Source: a virus
Direction: 5' to 3' (one strand)
IMG/VR virus record: IMGVR_UViG_3300045988_060233
DNA length: 39,231 bases
Both the position numbers and the translations under genes were made by a program. The number at the start of each line of letters is the position of its first letter. Position 1 is the first letter of the stretch. Below the pieces are notes generated by a model that was given only the letters and a program-made list of their open reading frames with translations, had not been told where the DNA came from and did not search any database. This document shows positions 100 to 38,664 of this stretch, in pieces.

Positions 100-693
100 T
101 TTTTTAACACCGATGGCCGTTTCAAAATTGCAGAGTATATGCACTTTTGCTCCAAACTGCTTGTCAAAGAGCCGAAGGAACGCGGCAAGGCTCCGGCCAT
201 GATTGTGTTCTGCGCGTTTGAGCAGATGCAGGAAATTACCGAATGGGGAAAAAAGTATGGGTTCATGAAGTCCTACCCGCTATTTTTCGTAAAAAACTAC
301 TCGGCCCAGGTGCTCAAAGCAAATATGCGTATCGTAGGCGCTACCGAGTTTGCTGTCGTGCTCTACCGCGACAAGCTCCCAAAATTCAACGGCGGCGGCC
401 ACATGGTCTATAACTGGTTCGAGTGGCGGCGCGATTCCGGCAGGGAGTATCCAAAAATCCACCCCACCCAAAAGCCGGTAAACCTGTTGAAACGCCTGAT
501 TGAAATTTTCACAGACCCCGGCGACGTTGTGATTGACCCATGCGCCGGTTCCGGCTCCACGCTCCGCGCCGCCTATGAATGCGGGCGCGACAGCTACGGT
601 TTTGAGGTTGACCGCAGGTTTTACGCCCTAGCCAAAGAAAAAATGCTCGACTTTTCCCAAGAGCAAATGAAGTTGGAGCAAATCGCAACATGA
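1..693 (+). CDS. DNA methyltransferase, beta-class N6A/N4C type, 3' part (continues from 39049 across the junction)
   Basis: Frame 1 is open from base 1 (IPYNIG...). HPTQKP and VIDPCAGSGST (motif I) lie downstream of the DPPY-like DIPY (motif IV); order IV then I indicates beta class. Stop at 691-693. Confidence 0.8.
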   Translation: MPYNIGANAYASNPVWYNGGDNKNGESKLAKKNFFNTDGRFKIAEYMHFCSKLLVKEPKERGKAPAMIVFCAFEQMQEITEWGKKYGFMKSYPLFFVKNYSAQVLKANMRIVGATEFAVVLYRDKLPKFNGGGHMVYNWFEWRRDSGREYPKIHPTQKPVNLLKRLIEIFTDPGDVVIDPCAGSGSTLRAAYECGRDSYGFEVDRRFYALAKEKMLDFSQEQMKLEQIAT

Positions 694-2448: not shown

Positions 2449-2593
2449 AAAACAGCAACTAGTTGATGAATACGCCCGCAAACATCTTTGCGCAACGTGT
2501 GAGTGGAAGAATGACAATATTTGCACGCTGCCGCGCTGCATGAAAATGGAAGAAAGGAGCAAAAATGAGAGAAAGACCGCTCAACCTAGATGA
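2444..2593 (+). CDS. Small Cys-rich protein (49 aa, not in ORF track)
   Basis: ATG lies inside the duplicated initiation sequence. CATCEW...CTLPRC. Weak SD; overlaps the next gene. Confidence 0.35.
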   Translation: MTKQQLVDEYARKHLCATCEWKNDNICTLPRCMKMEERSKNERKTAQPR

Positions 2594-2954
2594 ATATGGA
2601 ATTTCAAAAGAAAGATACCTTGAATTAAAGCACTTTTGCAAAAGATACGCTGAAATGCGGTTGGAAATTGCTAGCGCAAGAGGGCTTGATTCGGTTTCAA
2701 ATGACGGTTTGCCGCACGGAAACGGAAAGTCAGACCCAACAGCTAGAAAGGCGGACAGAGCGCTAAAGTTAAGCACAGATGTCCGAATCATTGAGGACGC
2801 GGCAAGAGAAGCAGACCCTTTAAACTGGTGTGCTCTGTTGAAAAATGTAACAGAGGGGACGGCTTACGAATACCAGCCTGTGCATTGCGGCAGGCGGCAG
2901 TTTTACGAAAGCAGAAGAAAATTTTTCTGGCTTTTGGACAAGAAAAAAGGGTAA
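2565..2954 (+). CDS. Putative late-gene transcriptional activator (sigma region-4-like / RinA-ArpU-type)
   Basis: AAGGAG 5 nt upstream. C-terminal RRQFYESRRKFFWLL resembles region-4-type HTH ends. Sits immediately upstream of the packaging module. Confidence 0.4.
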   Translation: MRERPLNLDEYGISKERYLELKHFCKRYAEMRLEIASARGLDSVSNDGLPHGNGKSDPTARKADRALKLSTDVRIIEDAAREADPLNWCALLKNVTEGTAYEYQPVHCGRRQFYESRRKFFWLLDKKKG

Positions 2955-3052
2955 CTGTGGGGATGTTGTCAAGTGGTATTATGAATATGCTGGGAACTGT
3001 AAAGAGGGTACATTACAGTTCATAGCAAAACCTCCTATTCTCGATACTGACA

Positions 3053-3077
3053 GCCGGGAAAGACCGGCATTTTATTT
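3053..3077 (+). terminator. Weak intrinsic terminator-like hairpin
   Basis: GCCGG/CCGGC stem (3053-3057/3064-3068), 6-nt loop, then ATTTTATTT. Confidence 0.4.
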
Positions 3078-3270
3078 GCTGCATAGCCAGCCGCAAACTT
3101 GGCCTGACAAGTCAATACGGCAAGGGCGCTGCGCTCCGCAAGCTACGGCGTGGCAAAGGTGCAAGACCTATGTGCAGTACCAGAGGGCAGGGTCGCAACC
3201 TGTCTGTGTGAGCGGGCGCGGTATCCCTCACAAATGATGACAATGGTCGTGCAAACGGCAAGCCGCACAT

Positions 3271-3328
3271 GCCCTTGTAGCTAAATGGCAATAGCCTTGG
3301 TGTGCCGGTTCAAGTCCGGCTGAGGGCA
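3271..3328 (+). ncRNA. tRNA-like element lacking an anticodon arm (acceptor + D arm + T arm, 58 nt)
   Basis: Acceptor stem 3271-3277/3321-3327. D arm GCTA-AATGGCAA-TAGC. T arm GCCGG-TTCAAGT-CCGGC. Only 8 nt where the anticodon and variable arms belong. Discriminator A; no CCA. Confidence 0.55.
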
Positions 3329-3688
3329 CATGCTGGGTCGCTCCCACCGGTGAAAGCCCGGCGCAGGCAAAACGCGATAGATAACCTGAACGCTGTAAGC
3401 AAAGCGGCAAGCCGATCAGGAGCGCGGCGCGATGGCAGGTCGCAACGGGACTTCGAGAGCCTGAAAAAATCTGCCCGGCATCTGCTTGTGCGGACTCCGT
3501 TACTGACGCAGTTACGCATCGCCGAAACCAATAACATCAAAGCAGAGACCGCGGGTAAGCGCGCGGAATACAAGTGCTGCTGAATTACGTTGCGGATTTA
3601 CTCCCCGCAACGGGTGAGGTCGGCACAGCATACACCGACAGGGCGGGAACGCGCTTTTCCTCCGGCGCAAAGGGATTTTGGGGGATAT

Positions 3689-3716
3689 AAGCCTACACAA
3701 ATTGTGTGGGCTTTTT
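3689..3716 (+). terminator. Intrinsic terminator ending the non-coding locus
   Basis: GCCTACAC/GTGTGGGC stem (one G-U) followed by TTTTTGTGTT. Lies just upstream of the terS SD. Confidence 0.7.
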
Positions 3717-3739
3717 GTGTTGTAAAACGAGGGGATAAA

Positions 3740-4165
3740 GTGGCATCAAGAAAAAATCCGGTGGGCGCACCACCTAAATACAGAAGCGTAAAGGCAATGC
3801 AAGAAAAGATTGATGCCTACTTTGAAGCCTGCAAAGGACAGCCGTTCTTAGACGATAACGGCGAACCAATGCGAAATAAAAACGGCTATATCATCTATGA
3901 CGATAAAAAGCCGCCTACTGTGACAGGATTGGCGCTTGCGCTTGGTTTTGCATCAAGGCAGGCGCTTTTGAATTACCAAAATAAACCAGAGTTCAATGAC
4001 ACGATTACGCGTGCAAAGACCCGTTGTGAACAGTACGCCGAAGAAAGACTGTATGACAAAGACGGCTCCGGCGGCGCACAGTTCAGCTTGCGGGCAAATT
4101 TCGGATGGCAGGATAAGCCGGAACAACAGCAGGATAGCGAGGTGCTAATCATAGATGACTTGTAA
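3740..4165 (+). CDS. terS: Terminase small subunit
   Basis: GTG 3740 after GAGGGG. PPKY...YF..C...PTVTGLALALGF.SRQ.L..Y...F...I.RAK...E...FSLRANFGWQD pattern. Directly upstream of terL. Confidence 0.7.
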   Translation: MASRKNPVGAPPKYRSVKAMQEKIDAYFEACKGQPFLDDNGEPMRNKNGYIIYDDKKPPTVTGLALALGFASRQALLNYQNKPEFNDTITRAKTRCEQYAEERLYDKDGSGGAQFSLRANFGWQDKPEQQQDSEVLIIDDL

Positions 4166-5426
4166 GCTATCGGGGATTGTTTCCCCTTGCTTCTCCAAAG
4201 TCCACCGTGAAATCAAGGCAGGCAATGTAAAAGAGCTTGTCGCAAAGGGCGGACGCGGCGGTACAAAATCCAGCTATATTAGCATAGAGCTAATTTTGCA
4301 GCTGCTAAAGCATCCGCAATGCCACGCGGCGGTTTTCCGCAAGGTCGGAAACACACTGCGCACAAGCGTGTATGCGCAAATCGTTTGGGCTATCAATGAG
4401 CTTGGATTGCACGACAATTTTCGTTGCACAGTCTCCCCGATGGAATGCACCTATTTGCCAACAGGGCAAAAGGTGCTTTTTTTCGGTGTTGATGACCCCG
4501 GCAAGGTAAAGTCAATCAAAGTGCCGTTTGGTTATATCGGTATCTGCTGGTTTGAAGAGCTTGACCAGTTTGACGGTGAAGAACAAATCCGAAACGTTGA
4601 ACAGTCCTGCCTACGCGGCGGTGACTGGTTCATTACGTTCAAGAGCTTCAACCCGCCAGCAATGGCGCGGAACTGGGCAAACGGCTACGCACTGAAAGCC
4701 CGAGATGGAAAGCTGATACATCATAGCACCTACAAAACAACGCCCGCAGAATGGCTCGGAGAGCGGTTTATGGCCGATGCGGAATATTTGCAGCGCACAA
4801 ACGAAACAGCCTACCGACACGAGTATCTGGGCGAGGTTGTAGGCAGCGGCACGGCAGTATTCGAAAACCTGAAAATTCAACCAATCACAGACGAGCAGGT
4901 GAAAACATTCGACAGAATCAAGCGCGGCGTTGACTGGGGCTGGTATCCTGACCCATGGGCATACAATGCAATGCACTATGACGCAGCGCGGCGCACGCTG
5001 TACATCTTCGATGAACTGACACGGCGTAGAACCAGCAACAGGGACACTGCGCAACTGCTTTTGGATAGAGGGCTGACGCGTGAGGATAAAGTCTGCGCGG
5101 ATAGCGCCGAGCCAAAATCTATTGCGGACTATAACAAGTACGGCGTAAAGACGTTCCCAGCCCGCAAGGGGCCGAAATCGGTTCGGTATGGCACAAAATG
5201 GTTGCAAATGCTGGAAGCTATTGTCATTGACCCTGAACGTTGCCCGGACACAGCAAAGGAATTTAGCGAGTATGAATACGAGCGGGACGGCAAGACGGGA
5301 GAAGTGCTGGAAGGCTACCCGGATTTGAACAACCACCACATTGACGCAGTGCGGTATGCGATGGAGAGCACAGCGAACAAGGCGGGAGACACCGCCGAAA
5401 CCAGATACAAGAGCATTTTCGTGTAA
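4155..5426 (+). CDS. terL: Terminase large subunit (PBSX/XtmB-like)
   Basis: Walker A-like GGRGGTKS. FFGVDDPGKVKSIK...WFEE motif. 423 aa. Confidence 0.85.
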   Translation: MTCKLSGIVSPCFSKVHREIKAGNVKELVAKGGRGGTKSSYISIELILQLLKHPQCHAAVFRKVGNTLRTSVYAQIVWAINELGLHDNFRCTVSPMECTYLPTGQKVLFFGVDDPGKVKSIKVPFGYIGICWFEELDQFDGEEQIRNVEQSCLRGGDWFITFKSFNPPAMARNWANGYALKARDGKLIHHSTYKTTPAEWLGERFMADAEYLQRTNETAYRHEYLGEVVGSGTAVFENLKIQPITDEQVKTFDRIKRGVDWGWYPDPWAYNAMHYDAARRTLYIFDELTRRRTSNRDTAQLLLDRGLTREDKVCADSAEPKSIADYNKYGVKTFPARKGPKSVRYGTKWLQMLEAIVIDPERCPDTAKEFSEYEYERDGKTGEVLEGYPDLNNHHIDAVRYAMESTANKAGDTAETRYKSIFV

Positions 5427-19960: not shown

Positions 19961-20035
19961 GAGGAGAGGTGAAACCATGAGAGAGCCAATCGTAATCAAC
20001 GCCGATAAACTGTTGTATTGTTAAGGAGGTAGGAC

Positions 20036-22327
20036 ATGGTACATACTTTGAGACTTGACAACTACTCCCCCACCCCGCGAAAGCTGGTGCTGGGGACTAA
20101 TTCCAGCTTTGGCACGGAGAGTATCAAGATTGAGCGCGGGGCCGGGTGGGACGGGCTCAATCTCACCGCAACGTGGCACATCCCCGGGCGGGAAGAGCCG
20201 CTGCGCGTGGCCTTGCTGGATGGGGATGCCATGGACGTGCCGCCCGAGGTGACGAAGGAGGCCAAGGATGGCGTGCTTGTGCTGGCCGGGCTGGCCTCCG
20301 GCGTGCAGCGGGCGAGTTGTAACGTGGAGTATCTTATCCTTGAGCAAGCGGGCGTATACGGCGGCGCGGATGCAGAGCCGACGCCCGAGCTGGCGGCGCA
20401 GGTGCTGCAGGCGGTGCAGGATGCCCGGGACGCGGCAAAGGACGCCGATCAGCGCGCCACGAACGCGGAGAACGTCGCCAACAGCGTGAGGGAGGACGCC
20501 GACAACGGGAAGTTTATCGGCCCAGTCGGCCCGCAGGGGCCTGTTGGGCCGCAAGGCGCGCAGGGTATCCAGGGCGAGAAGGGCGACACCGGAGAGCGCG
20601 GCCCCCAAGGTGAGCAGGGCGTTCAGGGTGTACAAGGCGAGAAGGGCGATACCGGCGCGCAGGGGCCTGTTGGCGAAACTGGCCCGGTTGGCCCCAAGGG
20701 TGATACTGGCCCGCAGGGTGAGCGCGGTGAGCAGGGGCCGCAGGGAGAGGTTGGCCCGGAGGGGCCTGCCGGAAAGGACGGCGTACAGATTGATGATGCG
20801 GCGGTGAGCGAGGACGCGCCGTGGAGCAGCAAGCACATCATTAATATGCTCTGCCCACCGCTGGAAGAAAGTGGAAATCCTGTTGTGTGTTACCCTGTGG
20901 CGGGTTATCCGCTTGGCGTGAAAGCGAAGTGGGAGCCCATGCAGGAGGGCACGGGAACGCCATATCCGGCAGGTGGCGGGCCTAACAAGCTGAATGTGGC
21001 CGGAATTGTGAGCAATAGAACGATCTCCGGCATCACCTTTACCGTAAATGCGGACGGCACGATTGGTGTGAATGGAACTTCTACCGCAATCTGCTTTTTG
21101 AATTCGAATACCAAATTTAATAAAGCCTATCTGCAAAAAATCCCAGCAGGGACTTACCGTCTTGACTTTGCACAGACTGCACTTGGCATCTTTTTGTTTG
21201 GCTACTACGAGGACAGCAGCGAGACCCCGATTGTGTATGCGGGGAACGTAGTGACCTATGCGCAGGACGCCTACGTTGGGCCGCAGATTCGCGTTGCTGC
21301 TGGCGCTACTGTGAATACCACAGTGCGGCTGATGCTGCACACTGGCACAAGTACGCCGAGCGCTTACGCTGGGTGGGAAAACATCCGTCCCATCAATGGC
21401 AGAGACAGTGTGACGGTTGAACGGTGCGGGGAGAATCTGCTGAATATAAAACCCTTTAACAAATTCACAAAGAAAGGCATTACGTATGAGTATGTTCCGA
21501 ATACCGGTATTCATGTATCCGGCACAGCAACGACTACTGTGGATGGCCCAACGTTTCCGGTTTGGCATCTGCCGCCTGGAAAATACTACGGGCTGGATAC
21601 AGGTGAAGGAATTTACGCTAGTATTGTGGTGCAGAGAAATGGGAAGACCTTGTGGCTAAATGCCAAAGGCGCTTTTGAGATTTTGGCTGGGGATGTAACT
21701 AAGTATTGGTACACGATTGTGAGTGCCGGCGCAACGGTTGACAAGACAGTGTATCCGTACATCGTCCCTGGCACCACCGCCCCCACGACCTACACGCCGT
21801 ACATCGGGCAGACCAACACCCTGACCCTGCCCGAAACCGTATATGGCGGTGAGGTGGACGCGGTGACGGGAGATGGAAGCAATAACACAAAGATTATCAC
21901 GCTGGACGGCAACGAACTGAAATTCAGACTATACAACAACATCTATTATAACCTTCCGAATCATTCTGCACCAGGGATTTCAACACGTGGAATTATTTGT
22001 GTCAGTCACTTTAACAGCAAGTTTTTTGGCGTGAATACAGATTACGATTTTTGTTTTTTGTCAAAGTCTGATATTGATAATCTGTTTGCCAACGCTGACG
22101 ACCTGAATGCCTACCTTGCCGCCCAGAACGACGCTGGCACGCCCGTGCAAATTGCTTATAAGCTGGCAACGCCCACTCCATTCACTGCGACAGGCGCACA
22201 GCCCATCCCCGCGCTTGCGGGAGCTAACACAATTCTGACCGATGCCGACAGCGCGACTGTGACGGGACGCGCTGACCCCATAAAGAGAATCACTGATTTG
22301 GAAGCAGCGGTTGCTTCTATCAACTGA
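20036..22327 (+). CDS. Tail fibre with collagen-like triple-helix segment
   Basis: TAAGGAGGT SD. 763 aa. G-X-Y run. Confidence 0.75.
20519..20782 (+). repeat. Collagen-like G-X-Y repeats (about 29 triplets)
   Basis: [30 protein letters not shown]...GPAGKDG. Confidence 0.9.
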
Positions 22328-28148: not shown

Positions 28149-28171
28149 AGCGTGTACTTTTAGTGTGTACT
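28149..28171 (+). repeat. AGCGTGTACT + AGTGTGTACT repeats (candidate arm-type sites, P' arm)
   Basis: Same orientation as the 27955-27976 copies. The second copy overlaps the int stop. Confidence 0.6.
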
Positions 28172-29236
28172 ATCTAAGGCGCTTCTGAAAGCTGCATCTA
28201 GCGCAGATGCAATCTTTTCTGCCTGCCCGTTTACGGAGTGGCCGTACACGCCGAATGTGTCCATGTTGCGGCTGTGGCCGACAAGAGCCTTGACTTGCCC
28301 CTCTGGAAGCACATTGGCGATTGACACAAATGTGTGCCGCAGTTCGTACAGGGAGACATACTGTATATTATTGTGAGCACAATACTTGCGCCACCATTTA
28401 TAAAGCAGATGCTCGTCGGTTACGCCAAACACGCTTTTTTCTTTATTGGTGGCTTCACGCTGTGCTTCCAGCACGCTCTTTGCCATGTCGGACAGTTCAA
28501 TAGCGCGAATCGCATTGTCGTTCTTCCCAGTCGTGTGTTCTCCGTAAACATTGATTGCGCGTTTCAGATAGATGCAGCCATTTTTCACATCTTTCCATTG
28601 CAGGCCCAGAAGCTCCCCGGGACGCAGGCCCGTAAGCACTGCAAAGCGATATGCGTTTACATAGGGGTCTACTATTTCCTTGCCTCTGAACATGGTCTTG
28701 TCGCTTGTCATGAGTATTGCCAAATCCTCCGGCTGCAATATTTTCTTTCTGGGCTTCGGCGTCCCCTCTGGTATGTGCAGCGCGTCTGGCGTGAATGTTG
28801 TGTACCCGGAATTTCTGGCGAAGCGGAAAAAAGAAGTTATATCTCCGTAAAGGTTCTGTAGCGTCTTGCGGCTCTTGCCTGCTGCTTTGGCGTTGTCCAA
28901 CACAGCCTGCACTTGCTGCTGTGTGAGCGATTCAAGCCGTCTGTGGCCTATTTCCGGCTGAATCCAGATGCGCCATCGGCTTTCTTTTGGTCTGTAGTTG
29001 CTCTGCCCTGATATTTTAGAGGCCCTTTCCAAATACTCTGCATACGCGCTCTCCACAGTCTTCCCGCGCGTCTGCAAGCCTTTTTCCAGCCAGTCATCCG
29101 CTTTTTTGTTTGCTTCTCGCTGGCCAGTGCGGCCCGGCTTCGCACTGGTAAATGTCTTGCGCACTCCGTTCTTCTGCACATTGATTTGCCAACGCCCGGC
29201 GCTTTCAATCCACTTTGCTGTATTTGTCCTTTTCAT
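28160..29236 (-). CDS. int: Tyrosine integrase
   Basis: 358 aa. ...LRHTFVS...LVGHS...Y catalytic-region pattern. AAGGAG SD. Adjacent to attP. Confidence 0.85.
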   Translation of the reverse strand: MKRTNTAKWIESAGRWQINVQKNGVRKTFTSAKPGRTGQREANKKADDWLEKGLQTRGKTVESAYAEYLERASKISGQSNYRPKESRWRIWIQPEIGHRRLESLTQQQVQAVLDNAKAAGKSRKTLQNLYGDITSFFRFARNSGYTTFTPDALHIPEGTPKPRKKILQPEDLAILMTSDKTMFRGKEIVDPYVNAYRFAVLTGLRPGELLGLQWKDVKNGCIYLKRAINVYGEHTTGKNDNAIRAIELSDMAKSVLEAQREATNKEKSVFGVTDEHLLYKWWRKYCAHNNIQYVSLYELRHTFVSIANVLPEGQVKALVGHSRNMDTFGVYGHSVNGQAEKIASALDAAFRSALDSTH

Positions 29237-37742: not shown

Positions 37743-38664
37743 GTGAGCAAAGAAGATTGGGGCATTGTGACCATGCCGACAAACGGCGACCCGGAGAAAA
37801 TCGCCATAGGGCGGTTGAAAGCGGCAAGCGACATGGCACTAAAGTATTACGGCACGCCGCTTGTGGTAACGACCAGCGGCGGCAAGGACAGCAGCGTATG
37901 CGTAGAACTTGCACTGAGGGGGGGGCATCCCGTTTGAAGTGCAGCACAACCACACAACAGCGGATGCGCCGGAGACAGTGCGGTTTGTACGGCAGGAATT
38001 TGCCAGACTTGAAAATCTGGGCGTGAAATGCACCATTAACTACCCCGTTTATAAGGGCAAGCGCACAAGTATGTGGGACCTAATCCCGCAAAAACTGATG
38101 CCGCCGACACGAATCGTGAGGTACTGCTGCGATGTGCTGAAAGAACAGGGCGGAAACGGGCGGTTCATCACGACTGGCGTGCGGTGGGCGGAAAGTAGCC
38201 GAAGAAAGCGCGACAGAGGCGTTTTTGAAGCATACACCCGGAACAAAGATAACAGAATCGTTTTGAAAGGCGAAGAACAGGAGCCGAGCAAAATCTTTGA
38301 AGGGTGCAAGGTGGCCGCAAAACGCGTAGTAAACCCCGTTGTGGACTGGACGGACAATCAAGTATGGAGCTTTTTGCAGGATGCAAAGGTGCCTGTAAAT
38401 CCGTTGTATGAATGTGGGCTGAATCGTGTGGGGTGTATCGGATGCCCACTCGCAAAGAAAAGTAAACGATATGCGGAGTTCCGACGCTGGCCTGCTTACG
38501 AGAAGCTCTACATACAAGCCTTTAACAGGATGCTTGATGAGCGCAGAGCGCGCGGAAAGCTGGACGGAAACTGGATGATGGGCGGTACAGGGCAAGATGT
38601 GTTCCGCTGGTGGATGGAAGAAAATGTACTGCCAGGACAGATGAGCGTGGAGGACTTTACATGA
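37743..38664 (+). pseudogene. PAPS-reductase-family (PP-loop ATPase) gene interrupted by a +1 frame change in a G8 run
   Basis: TTSGGKDSSV PP-loop in frame 0 stops at 37935-37937. Frame +1 opens exactly at the G run and continues GIPFEVQHNHTTADAPET...CIGCP. Confidence 0.7.
37918..37925 (+). repeat. Poly-G tract (8 G) at the frame junction
   Basis: Read directly. Seven G would restore a single ORF. Confidence 0.95.

What the first reader, a model, noticed from the sequence alone, without database searches (positions are those of the whole stretch)
3271..3328. 58-nt tRNA-like element with acceptor, D and T arms but no anticodon arm
Seen, folded by hand:
- Acceptor stem GCCCUUG/UGAGGGC (7 bp, two G-U pairs), then UA.
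- D arm GCUA-AAUGGCAA-UAGC, with the GG dinucleotide in the loop.
- A perfect T arm GCCGG-UUCAAGU-CCGGC.
- Discriminator A3328; no encoded CCA.
- Only 8 nt (3296-3303, CUUGGUGU) stand where the anticodon arm and variable loop should be.
Known: the acceptor/T minihelix plus the D/T elbow is what RNase P, RNase Z and the CCA-adding enzyme recognise. Decoding-arm-less tRNA mimics exist in tmRNA and in bacterial Y RNAs.
Inference, three options: (a) a processing signal that cuts the surrounding long RNA into two pieces; (b) a decoy for tRNA-binding or tRNA-cleaving host factors such as anticodon nucleases or tRNA-sensing defences; (c) a decayed tRNA gene.
Basis: partly seen in the sequence, partly recalled or inferred. 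Interest (0 to 1): 0.65.

Follow-up and report, generated by a model that had tools for sequence, protein, structure and literature searches.

The report
Anticodon-less tRNA-shaped RNA cassette in gut phages
The 58-base element is a real, evolutionarily maintained RNA that keeps every part of a tRNA except the anticodon arm, and it occupies sites in gut-phage late operons where relatives carry ordinary tRNA genes, so it most likely serves as a cutting signal for the host's tRNA-processing enzymes rather than as a decoder.

Summary
ARAGORN makes no call. The Rfam tRNA model scores 39 bits (E=5e-6), with only the anticodon arm deleted.

It is not a one-off deletion. The same 58-60-nt element occurs in 93 IMG/VR phage contigs as 20 sequence variants. 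Its three helices stay 99% paired, and four base pairs show compensatory double changes. Residues 27-43 are always replaced by 2-3 variable bases, and all canonical tertiary-core positions are present.

No full-length parent tRNA turned up in viral contigs, metagenomes or 185,579 species genomes.

The conserved block ends at the tRNA ends (A-2 U-1 through N73). It sits in three phage backbones, usually just after a terminator-like hairpin inside late-gene RNA. In relatives these sites are empty or hold real tRNAs (Trp, Thr, Asn).

- **Best reading (inferred, ~0.5):** a non-decoding tRNA surrogate cut out by RNase P and 3' tRNA-processing enzymes, punctuating the late transcript.
- **Rivals:** a trans-acting decoy or ligand, a domain of a larger leader RNA, or a relic.

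The same leader also carries a second cloverleaf-like RNA ending in ACCA (3078-3182) and the Rfam D12-methyl motif (3588-3651).

Verdict: a new variant of a known kind.

The parts
3271..3328 (+). The whole anticodon-arm-less tRNA-like element (58 nt)
   Evidence: Rfam tRNA model 39 bits, E=5e-6, model positions 1-71. Own covariance model R1 scores 87.3 bits and finds a single copy in the window. The same element occurs in 93 IMG/VR contigs.
3271..3277 (+). Acceptor stem, 5' strand GCCCUUG. It pairs with 3321-3327 UGAGGGC.
   Evidence: 98.6% of cells paired across 20 variants. Pair 2:71 changes C-G to A-U in 3 variants. Pairs 6:67 and 7:66 alternate between wobble and Watson-Crick.
3278..3295 (+). 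U8 A9, then the D arm: GCUA, loop AAUGGCAA (contains G18 G19), UAGC
   Evidence: Pair 13:22 is A-U in the window and L001 and C-G in most other variants (one has a mismatch), a compensatory double change. Relaxing the D- and T-loop bases in the scan pattern added no further family members.
3296..3303 (+). Linker C26, UU, G44 G45 U46 G47 U48. Residues 27-43 (the anticodon stem-loop) are replaced by 2 nt.
   Evidence: Variants carry UU, AU, UGA, UCA or GUA at the closure. C26, G44, G45, G47 and U48 never vary; position 46 is U or A. The numbering is my assignment by analogy with class I tRNAs.
3304..3320 (+). T arm: GCCGG, loop UUCAAGU, CCGGC
   Evidence: 100% of cells paired. Pairs 50:64 and 51:63 show changes on both sides: C-G to U-A, G-C and U-G.
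3321..3328 (+). Acceptor stem 3' strand UGAGGGC and discriminator A3328. No CCA is encoded here.
   Evidence: Sequence. The discriminator is A in most variants, G or C in a few. In context C the element is followed by an encoded CCA.
3260..3270 (+). Apparently unpaired 5' leader AAGCCGCACAU (I saw no covarying pairing in it), ending in A-2 U-1
   Evidence: All 22 distinct upstream contexts end in U at -1; 21 of the 22 have A at -2. Sequence conservation shared between contexts starts here.
3246..3259 (+). Upstream hairpin: GUCG, loop UGCAAA, CGGC
   Evidence: Variants read ACUG..CAGU, GCCG..CGGC or GUCG..UGGC and keep the pairing. I read this from the context list; it was not scored formally.
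3332..3376 (+). Conserved module that starts 3-4 nt after the discriminator: hairpin GGG/CCC (3335-3345), hairpin CCGG-UGAAAGC-CCGG (3347-3361), hairpin CGC..GCG (3362-3376)
   Evidence: In context A it follows whichever tRNA or tRNA-like element fills the slot. Variants CAGG..CCUG and CGU..ACG keep the pairing.
3078..3182 (+). Second tRNA-shaped RNA in the same leader: 7-bp acceptor stem GCUGCAU/GUGCAGU, three internal arms, discriminator A, encoded CCA
   Evidence: Found in 57 loci in sizes of 59-121 nt. Sequence contexts diverge immediately after the CCA. RNAalifold predicts an acceptor stem, three arms and a T-like hairpin; 4 pairs show compensatory changes, including 3:70 U-A to C-G.
3053..3068 (+). 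Terminator-like hairpin plus U-run that closes the upstream genes. The leader starts directly after it.
   Evidence: Terminator scan.
3588..3651 (+). D12-methyl RNA motif (Rfam RF02950), at the 3' end of the leader
   Evidence: 89.6 bits against a gathering score of 57.
3689..3713 (+). Terminator-like hairpin (11 pairs) plus U-run, just upstream of the small terminase gene
   Evidence: Terminator scan. The small terminase gene is called at about 3797-4165.

Best explanation
The element is a selectively maintained, non-decoding tRNA surrogate.

It folds into the acceptor/T-arm helix, the D/T-loop elbow and the tertiary core of a class I tRNA. Residues 27-43 are replaced by a 2-3-nt closure at the 26:44 position.

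It is carried as a discrete cassette in the transcribed spacer that leads into, or lies within, the late (packaging and head) operon of a group of human-gut temperate phages. Their host is probably a member of the Clostridia.

Proposed mechanism (inferred, not shown):
1. The element is transcribed as part of the long late RNA.
2. Host RNase P cuts at U-1/G1.
3. A 3' tRNA-processing activity cuts after A73. This would be RNase Z where no CCA is encoded, or trimming where CCA is encoded.
4. The polycistronic RNA is thereby split at this point, as in mitochondrial 'tRNA punctuation'. Where a hairpin lies directly upstream, the upstream RNA would end in it, and in contexts A and C the downstream RNA would begin with a hairpin 3-4 nt beyond the element.
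5. A 58-nt L-shaped RNA is released that cannot enter decoding.

On this view, losing the anticodon arm keeps the processing signal while removing any decoding activity.
For: Shown by tool results:
- The structure is real and constrained. 99.1% of stem cells are paired in 20 variants. Four pairs show compensatory double changes, and several more alternate between wobble and Watson-Crick. Only 3 of 320 stem cells are unpaired, each in a variant seen in one contig.
- Among 33 loci retrieved through the unrelated D12-methyl motif, nucleotide diversity is 0.023 in the element against 0.065-0.098 in the adjacent conserved module. It is also far below the 0.23-0.28 of the outer flanks, but that figure is inflated by non-homologous cassette replacement.
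- The residues for the U8-A14, A15-U48, G18-U55, G19-C56 and U54-A58 contacts, the A9/U12-A23 and G45/G10-C25 triples, and the C26-G44 contact are present and do not vary. U8, A9, G10 and parts of the D and T loops were fixed by the scan pattern; the rest are free observations.
- The block conserved between contexts runs from A-2 U-1 to N73, which matches mature tRNA ends.
- U at -1 is found in all 94 copies.
- The element is interchangeable with genuine tRNAs that must be cut from the same RNA. In context A the slot holds tRNA-Trp with encoded CCA (L003) or tRNA-Thr (L028). In context C the site between the portal and scaffold-like genes is empty in about 70 relatives, armless in 3, and tRNA-Asn in L273.
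- It lies on the same strand as the late genes in all three contexts, directly after a terminator-like hairpin and U-run in contexts B and C and in part of A.

From the literature:
- Bacterial RNase P tolerates truncated tRNA substrates. It also cuts mRNAs, polycistronic operon RNAs and phage regulatory RNAs.
- tRNA-like structures in MALAT1 and MEN-beta, and plant mitochondrial t-elements, are processing signals (PMC4919922).
Against: - No RNA data exist: neither transcription through the element nor any processed end has been shown.
- The slot is empty in many relatives (L002 and others in context A; about 70 loci in context C). The cut therefore cannot be essential for late gene expression.
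- RNase P and RNase Z need little more than the acceptor/T helix and the elbow. The unvarying variable-loop and D-loop bases, and the encoded CCA in context C, are better explained if the released RNA itself is recognised by something.
- The same 58-nt sequence has spread into three unrelated backbones, although any tRNA or hairpin could serve as a cut site.
- Thermodynamic folding of a 201-nt context does not keep the acceptor stem and is not better than shuffles.
- Most contigs come from one metagenome project, so the 93 copies are not 93 independent lineages.
Confidence: 0.5

Rival explanations
1. Trans-acting tRNA mimic. After excision and CCA addition, the 58-mer is itself the product. 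It would be a non-decoding tRNA body that binds a factor reading the acceptor end, elbow or core. That factor could be a host defence nuclease, a nucleotidyltransferase or acetyltransferase toxin acting on tRNA 3' ends, RNase P, the CCA-adding enzyme, or a synthetase. It would act as a decoy, a sponge or an aminoacyl carrier.
For: - All tertiary-core and loop positions are unvarying while stems drift with compensation.
- The discrete cassette has spread into three backbones in the way tRNA genes do.
- CCA is encoded after the element in context C, and in the other non-decoding tRNA-like RNAs of these leaders: L041, and the 3078-3182 family.
- A73 plus an intact U8-A14, A15-U48, G18-U55, G19-C56 core is the bacterial leucine identity set. 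Deleting the whole anticodon stem-loop costs Aquifex LeuRS only 2.5-fold in affinity (PMC2377443).
- At least one defence system cuts a tRNA outside the anticodon loop: Septu cuts the variable loop of tRNA-Tyr (abstract of PMC13096335).
Against: - No partner protein is evident. The window encodes no recognisable tRNA-related enzyme among the 39 ORFs I scanned.
- The element is single-copy, whereas a sponge would be expected to be abundant.
- It has no promoter of its own that I could find.
- The literature searches found no precedent for a bacterial or phage armless decoy.
Confidence: 0.25
2. Structural domain of one larger leader RNA. The tRNA-shaped units at 3078-3182 and 3271-3328, the hairpin module at 3332-3376 and the D12-methyl motif would act together. 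One possibility is a regulator of read-through of the terminator at 3689-3713 in front of the terminase genes. The UGAAAGC T-loop-like hairpin might dock on the tRNA elbow.
For: - In context A the module starts 3-4 nt after the discriminator whichever tRNA or tRNA-like element fills the slot.
- The leader is bounded by two terminator-like hairpins, and terS has no promoter-like site of its own.
- D12-methyl is a curated structured motif.
Against: - The armless element also occurs without the module and without D12-methyl (contexts B and C).
- D12-methyl occurs without either of them (L012, L025, L049).
- The middle of the leader is a mosaic of alternative cassettes of varying length.
- I found no covariation linking the element to anything outside it.
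Confidence: 0.1
3. Decaying tRNA gene. It would be a pseudogene left in a tRNA-rich spacer and shared by descent among closely related phages, with no function of its own.
For: - The spacer does hold real tRNAs in relatives.
- It also holds obvious tRNA debris, for example the D-arm-like fragment AGCAUUGCUCAUCUGGUAGAAA directly after the element in L017, L055, L062 and L064, and a shorter version in L037.
- Several other occupants of the slot have aberrant anticodon regions.
- Overall divergence within the family is low.
Against: - Five separate double (compensatory) changes, spread over four base pairs, and several wobble-compatible changes are seen, against three singleton mismatches.
- The deletion is exact at the 26/44 boundary. 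The closure loop varies, but an anticodon arm is never present.
- The element is the least variable segment of the region.
- It is present in three backbones with sharp boundaries at the tRNA ends.
- No full-length parent exists in any collection scanned.
Confidence: 0.1
4. DNA-level site. It would be an integrase attachment core copied from a host tRNA gene, or a terminase recognition (pac/cos) site.
For: In contexts A and B it lies close to the packaging genes. Many phage attachment sites contain tRNA gene fragments (general knowledge).
Against: - Pairs that alternate G-U with G-C or A-U make sense only for + strand RNA.
- The integrase gene is 25 kb away, at 28160-29236.
- No bacterial genome among 185,579 species representatives carries a tRNA with these D and T arms.
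- An attachment core would hold only the 3' part of a tRNA.
- Context C lies between the portal and scaffold-like genes.
Confidence: 0.03

Closest known systems
tRNA-like processing signals: mitochondrial 'tRNA punctuation', plant mitochondrial t-elements, and mascRNA of MALAT1/MEN-beta (PMC4919922)
   Same: A tRNA-shaped fold embedded in a longer transcript, recognised through the acceptor/T-arm helix and elbow by RNase P and RNase Z. Cleavage defines the ends of the flanking RNAs. The small RNA released does not decode.
   Different: Those are organellar or nuclear systems. mascRNA keeps a reduced anticodon arm, and t-elements are looser mimics. This element is a phage cassette with a complete tRNA core and an exact removal of residues 27-43. 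Cleavage has not been shown here.
tRNA genes embedded in phage late transcripts, for example ileZ-argN-argO downstream of the late terminator in Stx phage 933W (from memory)
   Same: Same kind of position: in line with late genes and just after a terminator that late transcription must read through. In relatives the very same slots hold real tRNA-Trp, tRNA-Thr or tRNA-Asn.
   Different: Those are decoding tRNAs. This element has no anticodon arm and cannot read a codon.
Gammaherpesvirus MHV68 tRNA-like RNAs fused to pre-miRNAs (TMERs) (from memory)
   Same: Virus-encoded tRNA-like units that are not aminoacylated and serve as handles for tRNA-processing enzymes, which release a linked downstream RNA.
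   Different: That is a eukaryotic virus. The units act as RNA polymerase III promoters and have full cloverleaves. There is no sequence relationship.
tmRNA tRNA-like domain and bacterial Y RNA (YrlA) tRNA-like module (PMC4201824)
   Same: Bacterial RNAs that keep acceptor, T-arm and D-loop features and have no anticodon arm.
   Different: In both, a long helix leaves from the place of the anticodon arm: the body with the tag reading frame in tmRNA, the Ro60-binding stem in YrlA. Here the gap is closed by 2-3 nt. There is no G3:U70, no tag reading frame (ARAGORN) and no Rfam hit to either family.
RNase P-processed phage regulatory RNAs: C4 of P1/P7 and CI of P4 (class cited in PMC4919922; the specific examples are from memory)
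   Same: Phage non-coding RNAs matured by host RNase P.
   Different: Those are antisense regulators with only a loosely tRNA-like cleavage site. They are not complete tRNA cores.

Membership tests
Canonical tRNA (Rfam RF00005; ARAGORN) | 7-bp acceptor stem, a D arm with G18 G19, and a T arm with a UUCRANY loop | tested here: met
   Full-length alignment to the tRNA model at 39 bits. The helices are supported by covariation.
Canonical tRNA (Rfam RF00005; ARAGORN) | Anticodon stem-loop with a 7-nt loop and an anticodon | tested here: not met
   18 model positions are deleted. ARAGORN makes no call. None of the 20 variants has more than 2-3 nt at this place.
tmRNA (tRNA-like domain) | Tag-peptide reading frame, pseudoknotted body, and G3:U70 alanine identity | tested here: not met
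   ARAGORN finds no tmRNA. Pair 3:70 is C-G (U-G in one variant). No Rfam tmRNA hit at E<=10.
Bacterial Y RNA (YrlA) | A Ro60-binding stem formed by the RNA ends in place of the anticodon arm, and a neighbouring rsr (Ro60) gene | tested here: not met
   The ends form an open acceptor stem. No Rfam YrlA hit. No Ro60-like protein among the 39 window ORFs scanned. Not every ORF was scanned.
tRNA-like processing element (mascRNA / t-element type) | A tRNA-like fold lying inside a longer transcript, between functional RNAs | tested here: inconclusive
   The position fits in three gene contexts, but transcription was not measured.
tRNA-like processing element (mascRNA / t-element type) | Cleavage by RNase P at the 5' end and by RNase Z at the 3' end | not testable with these tools
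   Only indirect features are available: a 12-bp acceptor/T stack, an intact elbow, U-1 in 94 of 94 copies, and no CCA in contexts A and B.
Phage attachment-site copy of a host tRNA gene | Near-identity to part of a host tRNA gene | tested here: not met
   No match to the D-arm and T-arm signature, with any spacing from 4 to 34 nt, in 185,579 species genomes.
D12-methyl RNA (RF02950) | Score above the gathering threshold of the curated model | tested here: not met
   The motif is present in the same leader at 3588-3651 (89.6 bits). It is a separate feature 260 nt downstream and does not cover 3271-3328. The armless element also occurs without it.

The most novel reading that the evidence does not exclude
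The late leader of these phages is an array of tRNA-shaped, non-decoding RNAs. In this window there are at least two: a cloverleaf-like RNA ending in ACCA at 3078-3182 and the armless 58-mer at 3271-3328. On this reading the mature products, not the cuts, are the point. They would be CCA-ended tRNA bodies recognised through the acceptor end and core. They might even be charged: A73 plus an intact core is the bacterial leucine identity set, and the anticodon arm is dispensable for it. They would titrate, or be used by, a host factor such as a tRNA-directed defence toxin or nuclease. That would make them a new class of phage-encoded tRNA decoys or aminoacyl carriers.
Probability: 0.22. Interest if true: 0.85.

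Novelty: new variant of a known kind. Interest (0 to 1): 0.62.

Why it matters
- **A minimal natural tRNA body.** If the element is cut by RNase P and RNase Z, it is a natural, minimal 58-nt substrate. It would show which parts of a tRNA a phage keeps when only recognition by the processing machinery matters. It would also extend tRNA punctuation of polycistronic RNA from organelles to phage operons.
- **A possible new counter-defence.** If instead the released RNA acts in trans, it would be the first phage tRNA decoy without an anticodon arm. That bears on the growing list of tRNA-directed defence systems.
- **A new RNA family candidate either way.** The element is covariation-supported, portable and found in human-gut phages. 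Standard tRNA finders miss it.
- **More unannotated RNA content.** These leaders hold further non-canonical tRNA-like RNAs, so phage spacers annotated as empty may carry more RNA genes than assumed.

Tried and rejected
- **DNA similarity searches.** Searching 3030-3730 against 50,697 GenBank phages and 5,426 E. coli genomes gave no match.
- **Species-genome scans.** The tRNA-like signature gave 0 hits. The D12-methyl core gave 82 hits, mostly in high-GC genomes; none carries the rest of the motif, so I treat them as chance matches. The host could therefore not be identified from prophages.
- **Search for a full-length parent tRNA.** A pattern with the same D and T loops gave 0 hits in viral contigs. 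It gave 11 metagenome hits, all with other acceptor stems; the ones ARAGORN calls are Thr, Asp, Val and His tRNAs.
- **Host identification by protein.** The exact large-terminase protein occurs only on phage-sized contigs; the one shown is from a human-gut (HMP) metagenome.
- **Energy-based folding.** It is only marginal for the element and uninformative in context, so I relied on covariation instead.
- **Group II intron similarity.** The weak hit (RF02003, 24-28 bits against a gathering score of 49, at 3344-3450 and in relatives) was noted but not pursued. It lies outside the element.
- **Automatic ORF-orientation count.** A count around all copies was too noisy to use, because of spurious ORFs in the GC-rich spacer.
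- **Promoter search.** No sigma-70-type promoter turned up in 2500-4200. Reading the AU-rich tract before the element as a -10 box was rejected because it lies too close to G1.
- **Literature.** Nothing was found on D12-methyl, and no description of armless tRNA-like RNAs in phages.
- **tmRNA, Y RNA and attachment-site readings.** All three were rejected; see the membership tests.
Full report
**1.

The sequence at 3271-3328 (+) is exactly as described:
- Acceptor stem GCCCUUG/UGAGGGC, followed by U8 A9.
- D arm GCUA-AAUGGCAA-UAGC.
- An 8-nt linker, CUUGGUGU.
- T arm GCCGG-UUCAAGU-CCGGC.
- Discriminator A3328, with no CCA encoded.

ARAGORN calls nothing in the whole window. With permissive filters the Rfam tRNA model aligns from model position 1 to 71 at 39 bits. 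The gathering score is 29, and E=5e-6 for 3 kb. Its only defect is an 18-position deletion of the anticodon arm. The filtered gathering-threshold run did not list this hit.

Folding energy alone is marginal (z=-2.1). In a 201-nt context the predicted minimum-energy fold does not keep the acceptor stem. Significance therefore has to come from comparison with relatives.

**2. Setting in the window**

The window looks like a complete temperate siphovirus-type genome of about 39 kb.
- A DNA methyltransferase fragment, a Lar-like gene and small early genes lie upstream.
- Small terminase (about 3797-4165), large terminase, an SPP1-type portal and a Mu F-like head protein lie downstream.
- The integrase is at 28160-29236, next to repressor-like genes. 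Replication genes are at 34-39 kb.
- The closest large terminases come from human faecal phages and, below 50% identity, from Blautia and Clostridium phages.
- The exact large-terminase protein occurs only on 20-50-kb contigs; the one shown is from a human-gut (HMP) metagenome.

The element lies in a gene-free stretch of about 840 nt (roughly 2954-3797). Within it, the leader runs between two terminator-like hairpins at 3053-3068 and 3689-3713. The stretch also holds the Rfam D12-methyl motif at 3588-3651 (89.6 bits).

**3. The element is a family, not a one-off**
- A scan of IMG/VR with the D12-methyl core returned 64 loci. About 57 are genuine, and 33 of those carry the armless element.
- A scan with a D-loop/T-loop signature and short spacing returned 93 contigs. 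Together with the window they give 20 distinct 58-60-nt variants.
- Relaxing the loop bases in the pattern added only three unrelated loci. The loops are therefore truly unvarying within the family in this collection.
- A covariance model built from the variants separates members (82-90 bits; the window scores 87.3 and has a single copy) from everything else (31 bits or less).

**4. Evidence for structural constraint**

On the cloverleaf without its anticodon arm, 99.1% of cells are paired. Four pairs have changes on both sides, a count reached by 2 of 500 shuffles. For percentage paired, covariation score and the other two measures, no shuffle in 500 reaches the observed value. Sliding the 3' partners by one to three columns removes the signal.

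The compensatory changes are:
- Pair 2:71, C-G to A-U.
- Pair 13:22, C-G to A-U. This is the window's own variant.
- Pair 50:64, C-G through U-G to U-A.
- Pair 51:63, C-G to G-C and to U-A.

Pairs 3:70, 6:67, 7:66 and 49:65 alternate between wobble and Watson-Crick. This identifies the + strand RNA as the constrained molecule. Only 3 of the 320 stem cells are unpaired, each in a variant seen in a single contig.

The linker reads C26, then UU, AU, UGA, UCA or GUA, then G44 G45 (U/A)46 G47 U48. The closure varies in sequence and length. The flanking residues that normally make the 26-44, 45/10-25 and 15-48 contacts never vary. The residues for the U8-A14, A9/U12-A23, G18-U55, G19-C56 and U54-A58 contacts are present in every copy, though U8, A9, G10 and parts of the loops were fixed by the scan pattern. 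The tRNA position numbers are my assignment by analogy.

In short, residues 27-43 have been removed exactly, and the rest of a class I tRNA core is intact.

Among the 33 loci retrieved independently of the element's sequence, nucleotide diversity is 0.023 in the element and 0.065-0.098 in the adjacent conserved module. In the outer flanks it is 0.23-0.28, but that figure is inflated by replacement with non-homologous cassettes.

**5. No parent tRNA was found**
- No full-length tRNA with this D-arm and T-arm signature exists in 2.9 million viral contigs.
- The metagenome collection gave 11 hits, all with other acceptor stems; the ones ARAGORN calls are Thr, Asp, Val and His tRNAs.
- The species-representative genomes have neither a full-length nor an armless match.

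**6. The element behaves like a tRNA-gene cassette**

The block conserved across contexts starts at A-2 U-1 and ends at the discriminator. I counted 22 different upstream and 42 different downstream sequences. There are three gene contexts.

*Context A (the window and about 86 contigs)*
- The element lies in the leader upstream of D12-methyl and terS.
- It sits in a slot 3-4 nt upstream of a conserved hairpin module, GCUGGGUCGCUCCCA-CCGGUGAAAGCCCGG.
- In relatives the same slot holds tRNA-Trp with CCA (L003) or tRNA-Thr(CGU) (L028).
- Other relatives hold aberrant tRNA-like units there: L041 (encoded CCA, 42.5 bits to the Rfam tRNA model), L057/L060, and L035/L036 (with L061 carrying the same type of unit in a different downstream context). 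L026/43/44, L030 and L033/39 keep a T arm and acceptor stem but get no Rfam tRNA hit.
- In L002 the slot is deleted.

*Context B (L147, L189, L203)*
- The element lies directly after the hairpin GCCCGGUUGAGAUGCCGGGC followed by UAUUUUUAU.
- An HNH endonuclease gene starts about 40-70 nt downstream.
- Relatives carry tRNA-Met (L344) or tRNA-Leu (L345) within 300 nt upstream of the HNH gene, or nothing.

*Context C (L191, L195, L196)*
- The order is portal gene, a strong terminator-like hairpin and U-run, the armless element with an encoded CCA, a hairpin, an unassigned ORF in the position of a scaffold gene, and the major head gene.
- Of 75 relatives examined, the site holds only a small GNRA hairpin in about 70, the armless element in 3, and a genuine tRNA-Asn(GUU) with CCA in L273.

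**7. Mechanism**

Shown:
- A constrained, tRNA-shaped, anticodon-less RNA fold on the late-gene strand.
- Boundaries of the conserved block at the tRNA ends.
- Interchangeability with genuine tRNAs.
- U at -1 in all 94 copies.
- Structured flanks on both sides in most contexts.

Inferred:
- The element is transcribed as part of the late RNA.
- It is cut by RNase P at G1 and by a 3' tRNA-processing activity after N73.
- The cut separates the upstream RNA, which where a hairpin lies directly upstream ends in it, from the downstream RNA, which in contexts A and C then begins with a hairpin.

Precedents come from the literature. Bacterial RNase P cuts mRNAs, polycistronic operon RNAs and phage regulatory RNAs. 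The tRNA-like structures of MALAT1 and MEN-beta, and plant mitochondrial t-elements, act as processing signals (PMC4919922).

I put this reading at about 0.5. Three things weaken it:
- The slot is often empty.
- Generic processing does not explain why the core and loops never vary.
- It does not explain the encoded CCA in context C.

The main rival, at about 0.25, is that the released 58-mer is itself a ligand or decoy. For example, A73 plus the intact core matches the bacterial LeuRS identity set, for which the anticodon arm is dispensable (PMC2377443). No partner is evident in the window.

The remaining readings are less likely:
- A domain of one larger leader RNA (about 0.1) fails to explain contexts B and C.
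- A decaying pseudogene (about 0.1) is contradicted by the substitution pattern, by the exact 26/44 deletion and by the spread across backbones. The spacer does, however, contain true tRNA debris.
- A DNA-level site (about 0.03) is contradicted by the G-U alternation and by the lack of any host tRNA match.

**8. Comparison with known families**

The element fails the defining anticodon-arm feature of tRNA. It is not a tmRNA domain or a Y RNA module. It works most like tRNA-like processing signals and like the decoding tRNAs that sit in phage late transcripts.

I found no description of an anticodon-arm-less tRNA-like family in phages. I rate it a new variant of a known kind, with interest about 0.6.

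**9. Other findings**

The same leader begins with a second tRNA-shaped RNA at 3078-3182, directly after the terminator at 3053-3068.
- It has a 7-bp acceptor stem, GCUGCAU/GUGCAGU.
- It has three internal arms, including a T-like hairpin next to the 3' acceptor strand.
- It ends in discriminator A and an encoded CCA.
- It occurs in 57 loci in sizes of 59-121 nt.
- Sequence contexts diverge immediately after the CCA.
- It shows compensatory changes, for example 3:70 U-A to C-G.

An unrelated phage contig (L220) carries a tRNA-Lys-like gene whose anticodon loop is interrupted by a different armless tRNA-like unit ending in ACCA.

Noticed in passing
window 3078-3182 (+): A second tRNA-shaped RNA, directly after the terminator at 3053-3068. 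It has a 7-bp acceptor stem (GCUGCAU/GUGCAGU), three internal arms including a T-like hairpin (AGGU-GCAAG-ACCU), discriminator A and an encoded CCA. It occurs in 57 loci in sizes of 59-121 nt. Contexts diverge right after the CCA, and 4 pairs show compensatory changes. No Rfam tRNA hit and no ARAGORN call.
   Followed up: partly
window 3588-3651 and 3689-3713 (+): The Rfam D12-methyl RNA motif (89.6 bits) is followed by an 11-pair terminator-like hairpin upstream of the small terminase gene. No promoter-like site lies in between. This suggests that late gene expression needs read-through here.
   Followed up: partly
window 3332-3450 (+): A conserved module of three small hairpins starts 3-4 nt after the tRNA-like element. 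Variants CAGG-UGCAAGC-CCUG and CGU..ACG keep the pairing. The loop UGAAAGC resembles a T-loop. The stretch 3344-3450 gives a weak but repeatable hit to group-II-D1D4-4 (24-28 bits, gathering score 49) in the window and in five relatives.
   Followed up: partly
window 3182/3183, compared with L024 361-573 and L017: Relatives carry an extra cassette of about 213 nt here, an AT-rich stretch plus tRNA-Trp(CCA). The window lacks it. The hairpin CAGGGUCGCAACCUG (3188-3205) corresponds to the hairpin that follows tRNA-Trp in L009, L017 and L024. The whole leader is a mosaic of alternative cassettes.
   Followed up: partly
L041, L057/L060, L035/L036/L061, L026/L043/L044, L030, L033/L039 (same slot as the window element): Other non-canonical tRNA-like units with a good T arm and acceptor stem but aberrant middles. 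L041 has a 4-bp stem with loop GCUCGAG and an encoded CCA. L057 has a tetraloop mini-hairpin. L035 is 84 nt long. L026, L030 and L033 lack a D arm and get no Rfam tRNA hit.
   Followed up: partly
L220, minus strand 3026-2909 (IMGVR_UViG_3300045988_133431, 108-kb contig): A tRNA-Lys(UUU)-like gene whose anticodon loop (CUUUU^AA) is interrupted by an insert of about 61 nt. The insert is itself an anticodon-arm-less tRNA-like unit with an 8-nt linker and an encoded A-CCA. It belongs to a different sequence family. ARAGORN calls the composite a 97-nt 'tRNA-Arg'.
   Followed up: partly
L219 9373-9432 (-) (IMGVR_UViG_2940373808_000002): An AT-rich armless-looking tRNA-like sequence (GGGAAUAUAGCUUAAUGGAAAAAGCAAUACAACGAUAUAGGUUCGAUUCCUAUUAUUCCG) in an unrelated phage. 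It scores 24 bits with model R1.
   Followed up: no
L017, L055, L062, L064, directly 3' of the armless element (a shorter version in L037): A 20-25-nt insert, AGCAUUGCUCAUCUGGUAGAAA, looks like the D-arm part of a broken tRNA. Real tRNA debris therefore exists in these leaders and looks quite different from the intact armless element.
   Followed up: no
window 3549-3576, and several places in relatives (e.g. L001 1940-1965, L009 790-870): A recurring motif: a short GC hairpin (CCGCG..CGCGG) followed by an AU-rich box (GGGAUAUAAA, GGGGAUAAAU or GGAAUACAAG). There are up to three copies per leader. A similar hairpin-plus-UUUUAUAU arrangement precedes many of the tRNA-like units. Its function is unknown.
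   Followed up: no
window 3226-3231 versus 3321-3326: The upstream CCCUCA is fully complementary to the 3' acceptor strand UGAGGG. It wins over the acceptor stem in the minimum-energy fold of 3200-3400. It also closes a local hairpin with UGUGAG (3207-3212). I did not test whether this alternative pairing matters.
   Followed up: no
L326 and L342, within 300 nt upstream of the HNH gene: Another candidate tRNA-like unit that ARAGORN does not call: T arm GCCGG-UUCGACU-CCGGC, then CAGCGGCU-CCA.
   Followed up: no
window 20001-21000: GC content rises to 0.647, against about 0.50 elsewhere, inside the 763-aa ORF at 20036-22327 (tail region). Not examined.
   Followed up: no
window 139-693, 2050-2223, 37939-38664: A DNA methyltransferase fragment at the window start, a Lar-like restriction-alleviation gene, and a PAPS-reductase-like gene. 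These are accessory genes of possible anti-restriction or DNA-modification function.
   Followed up: no
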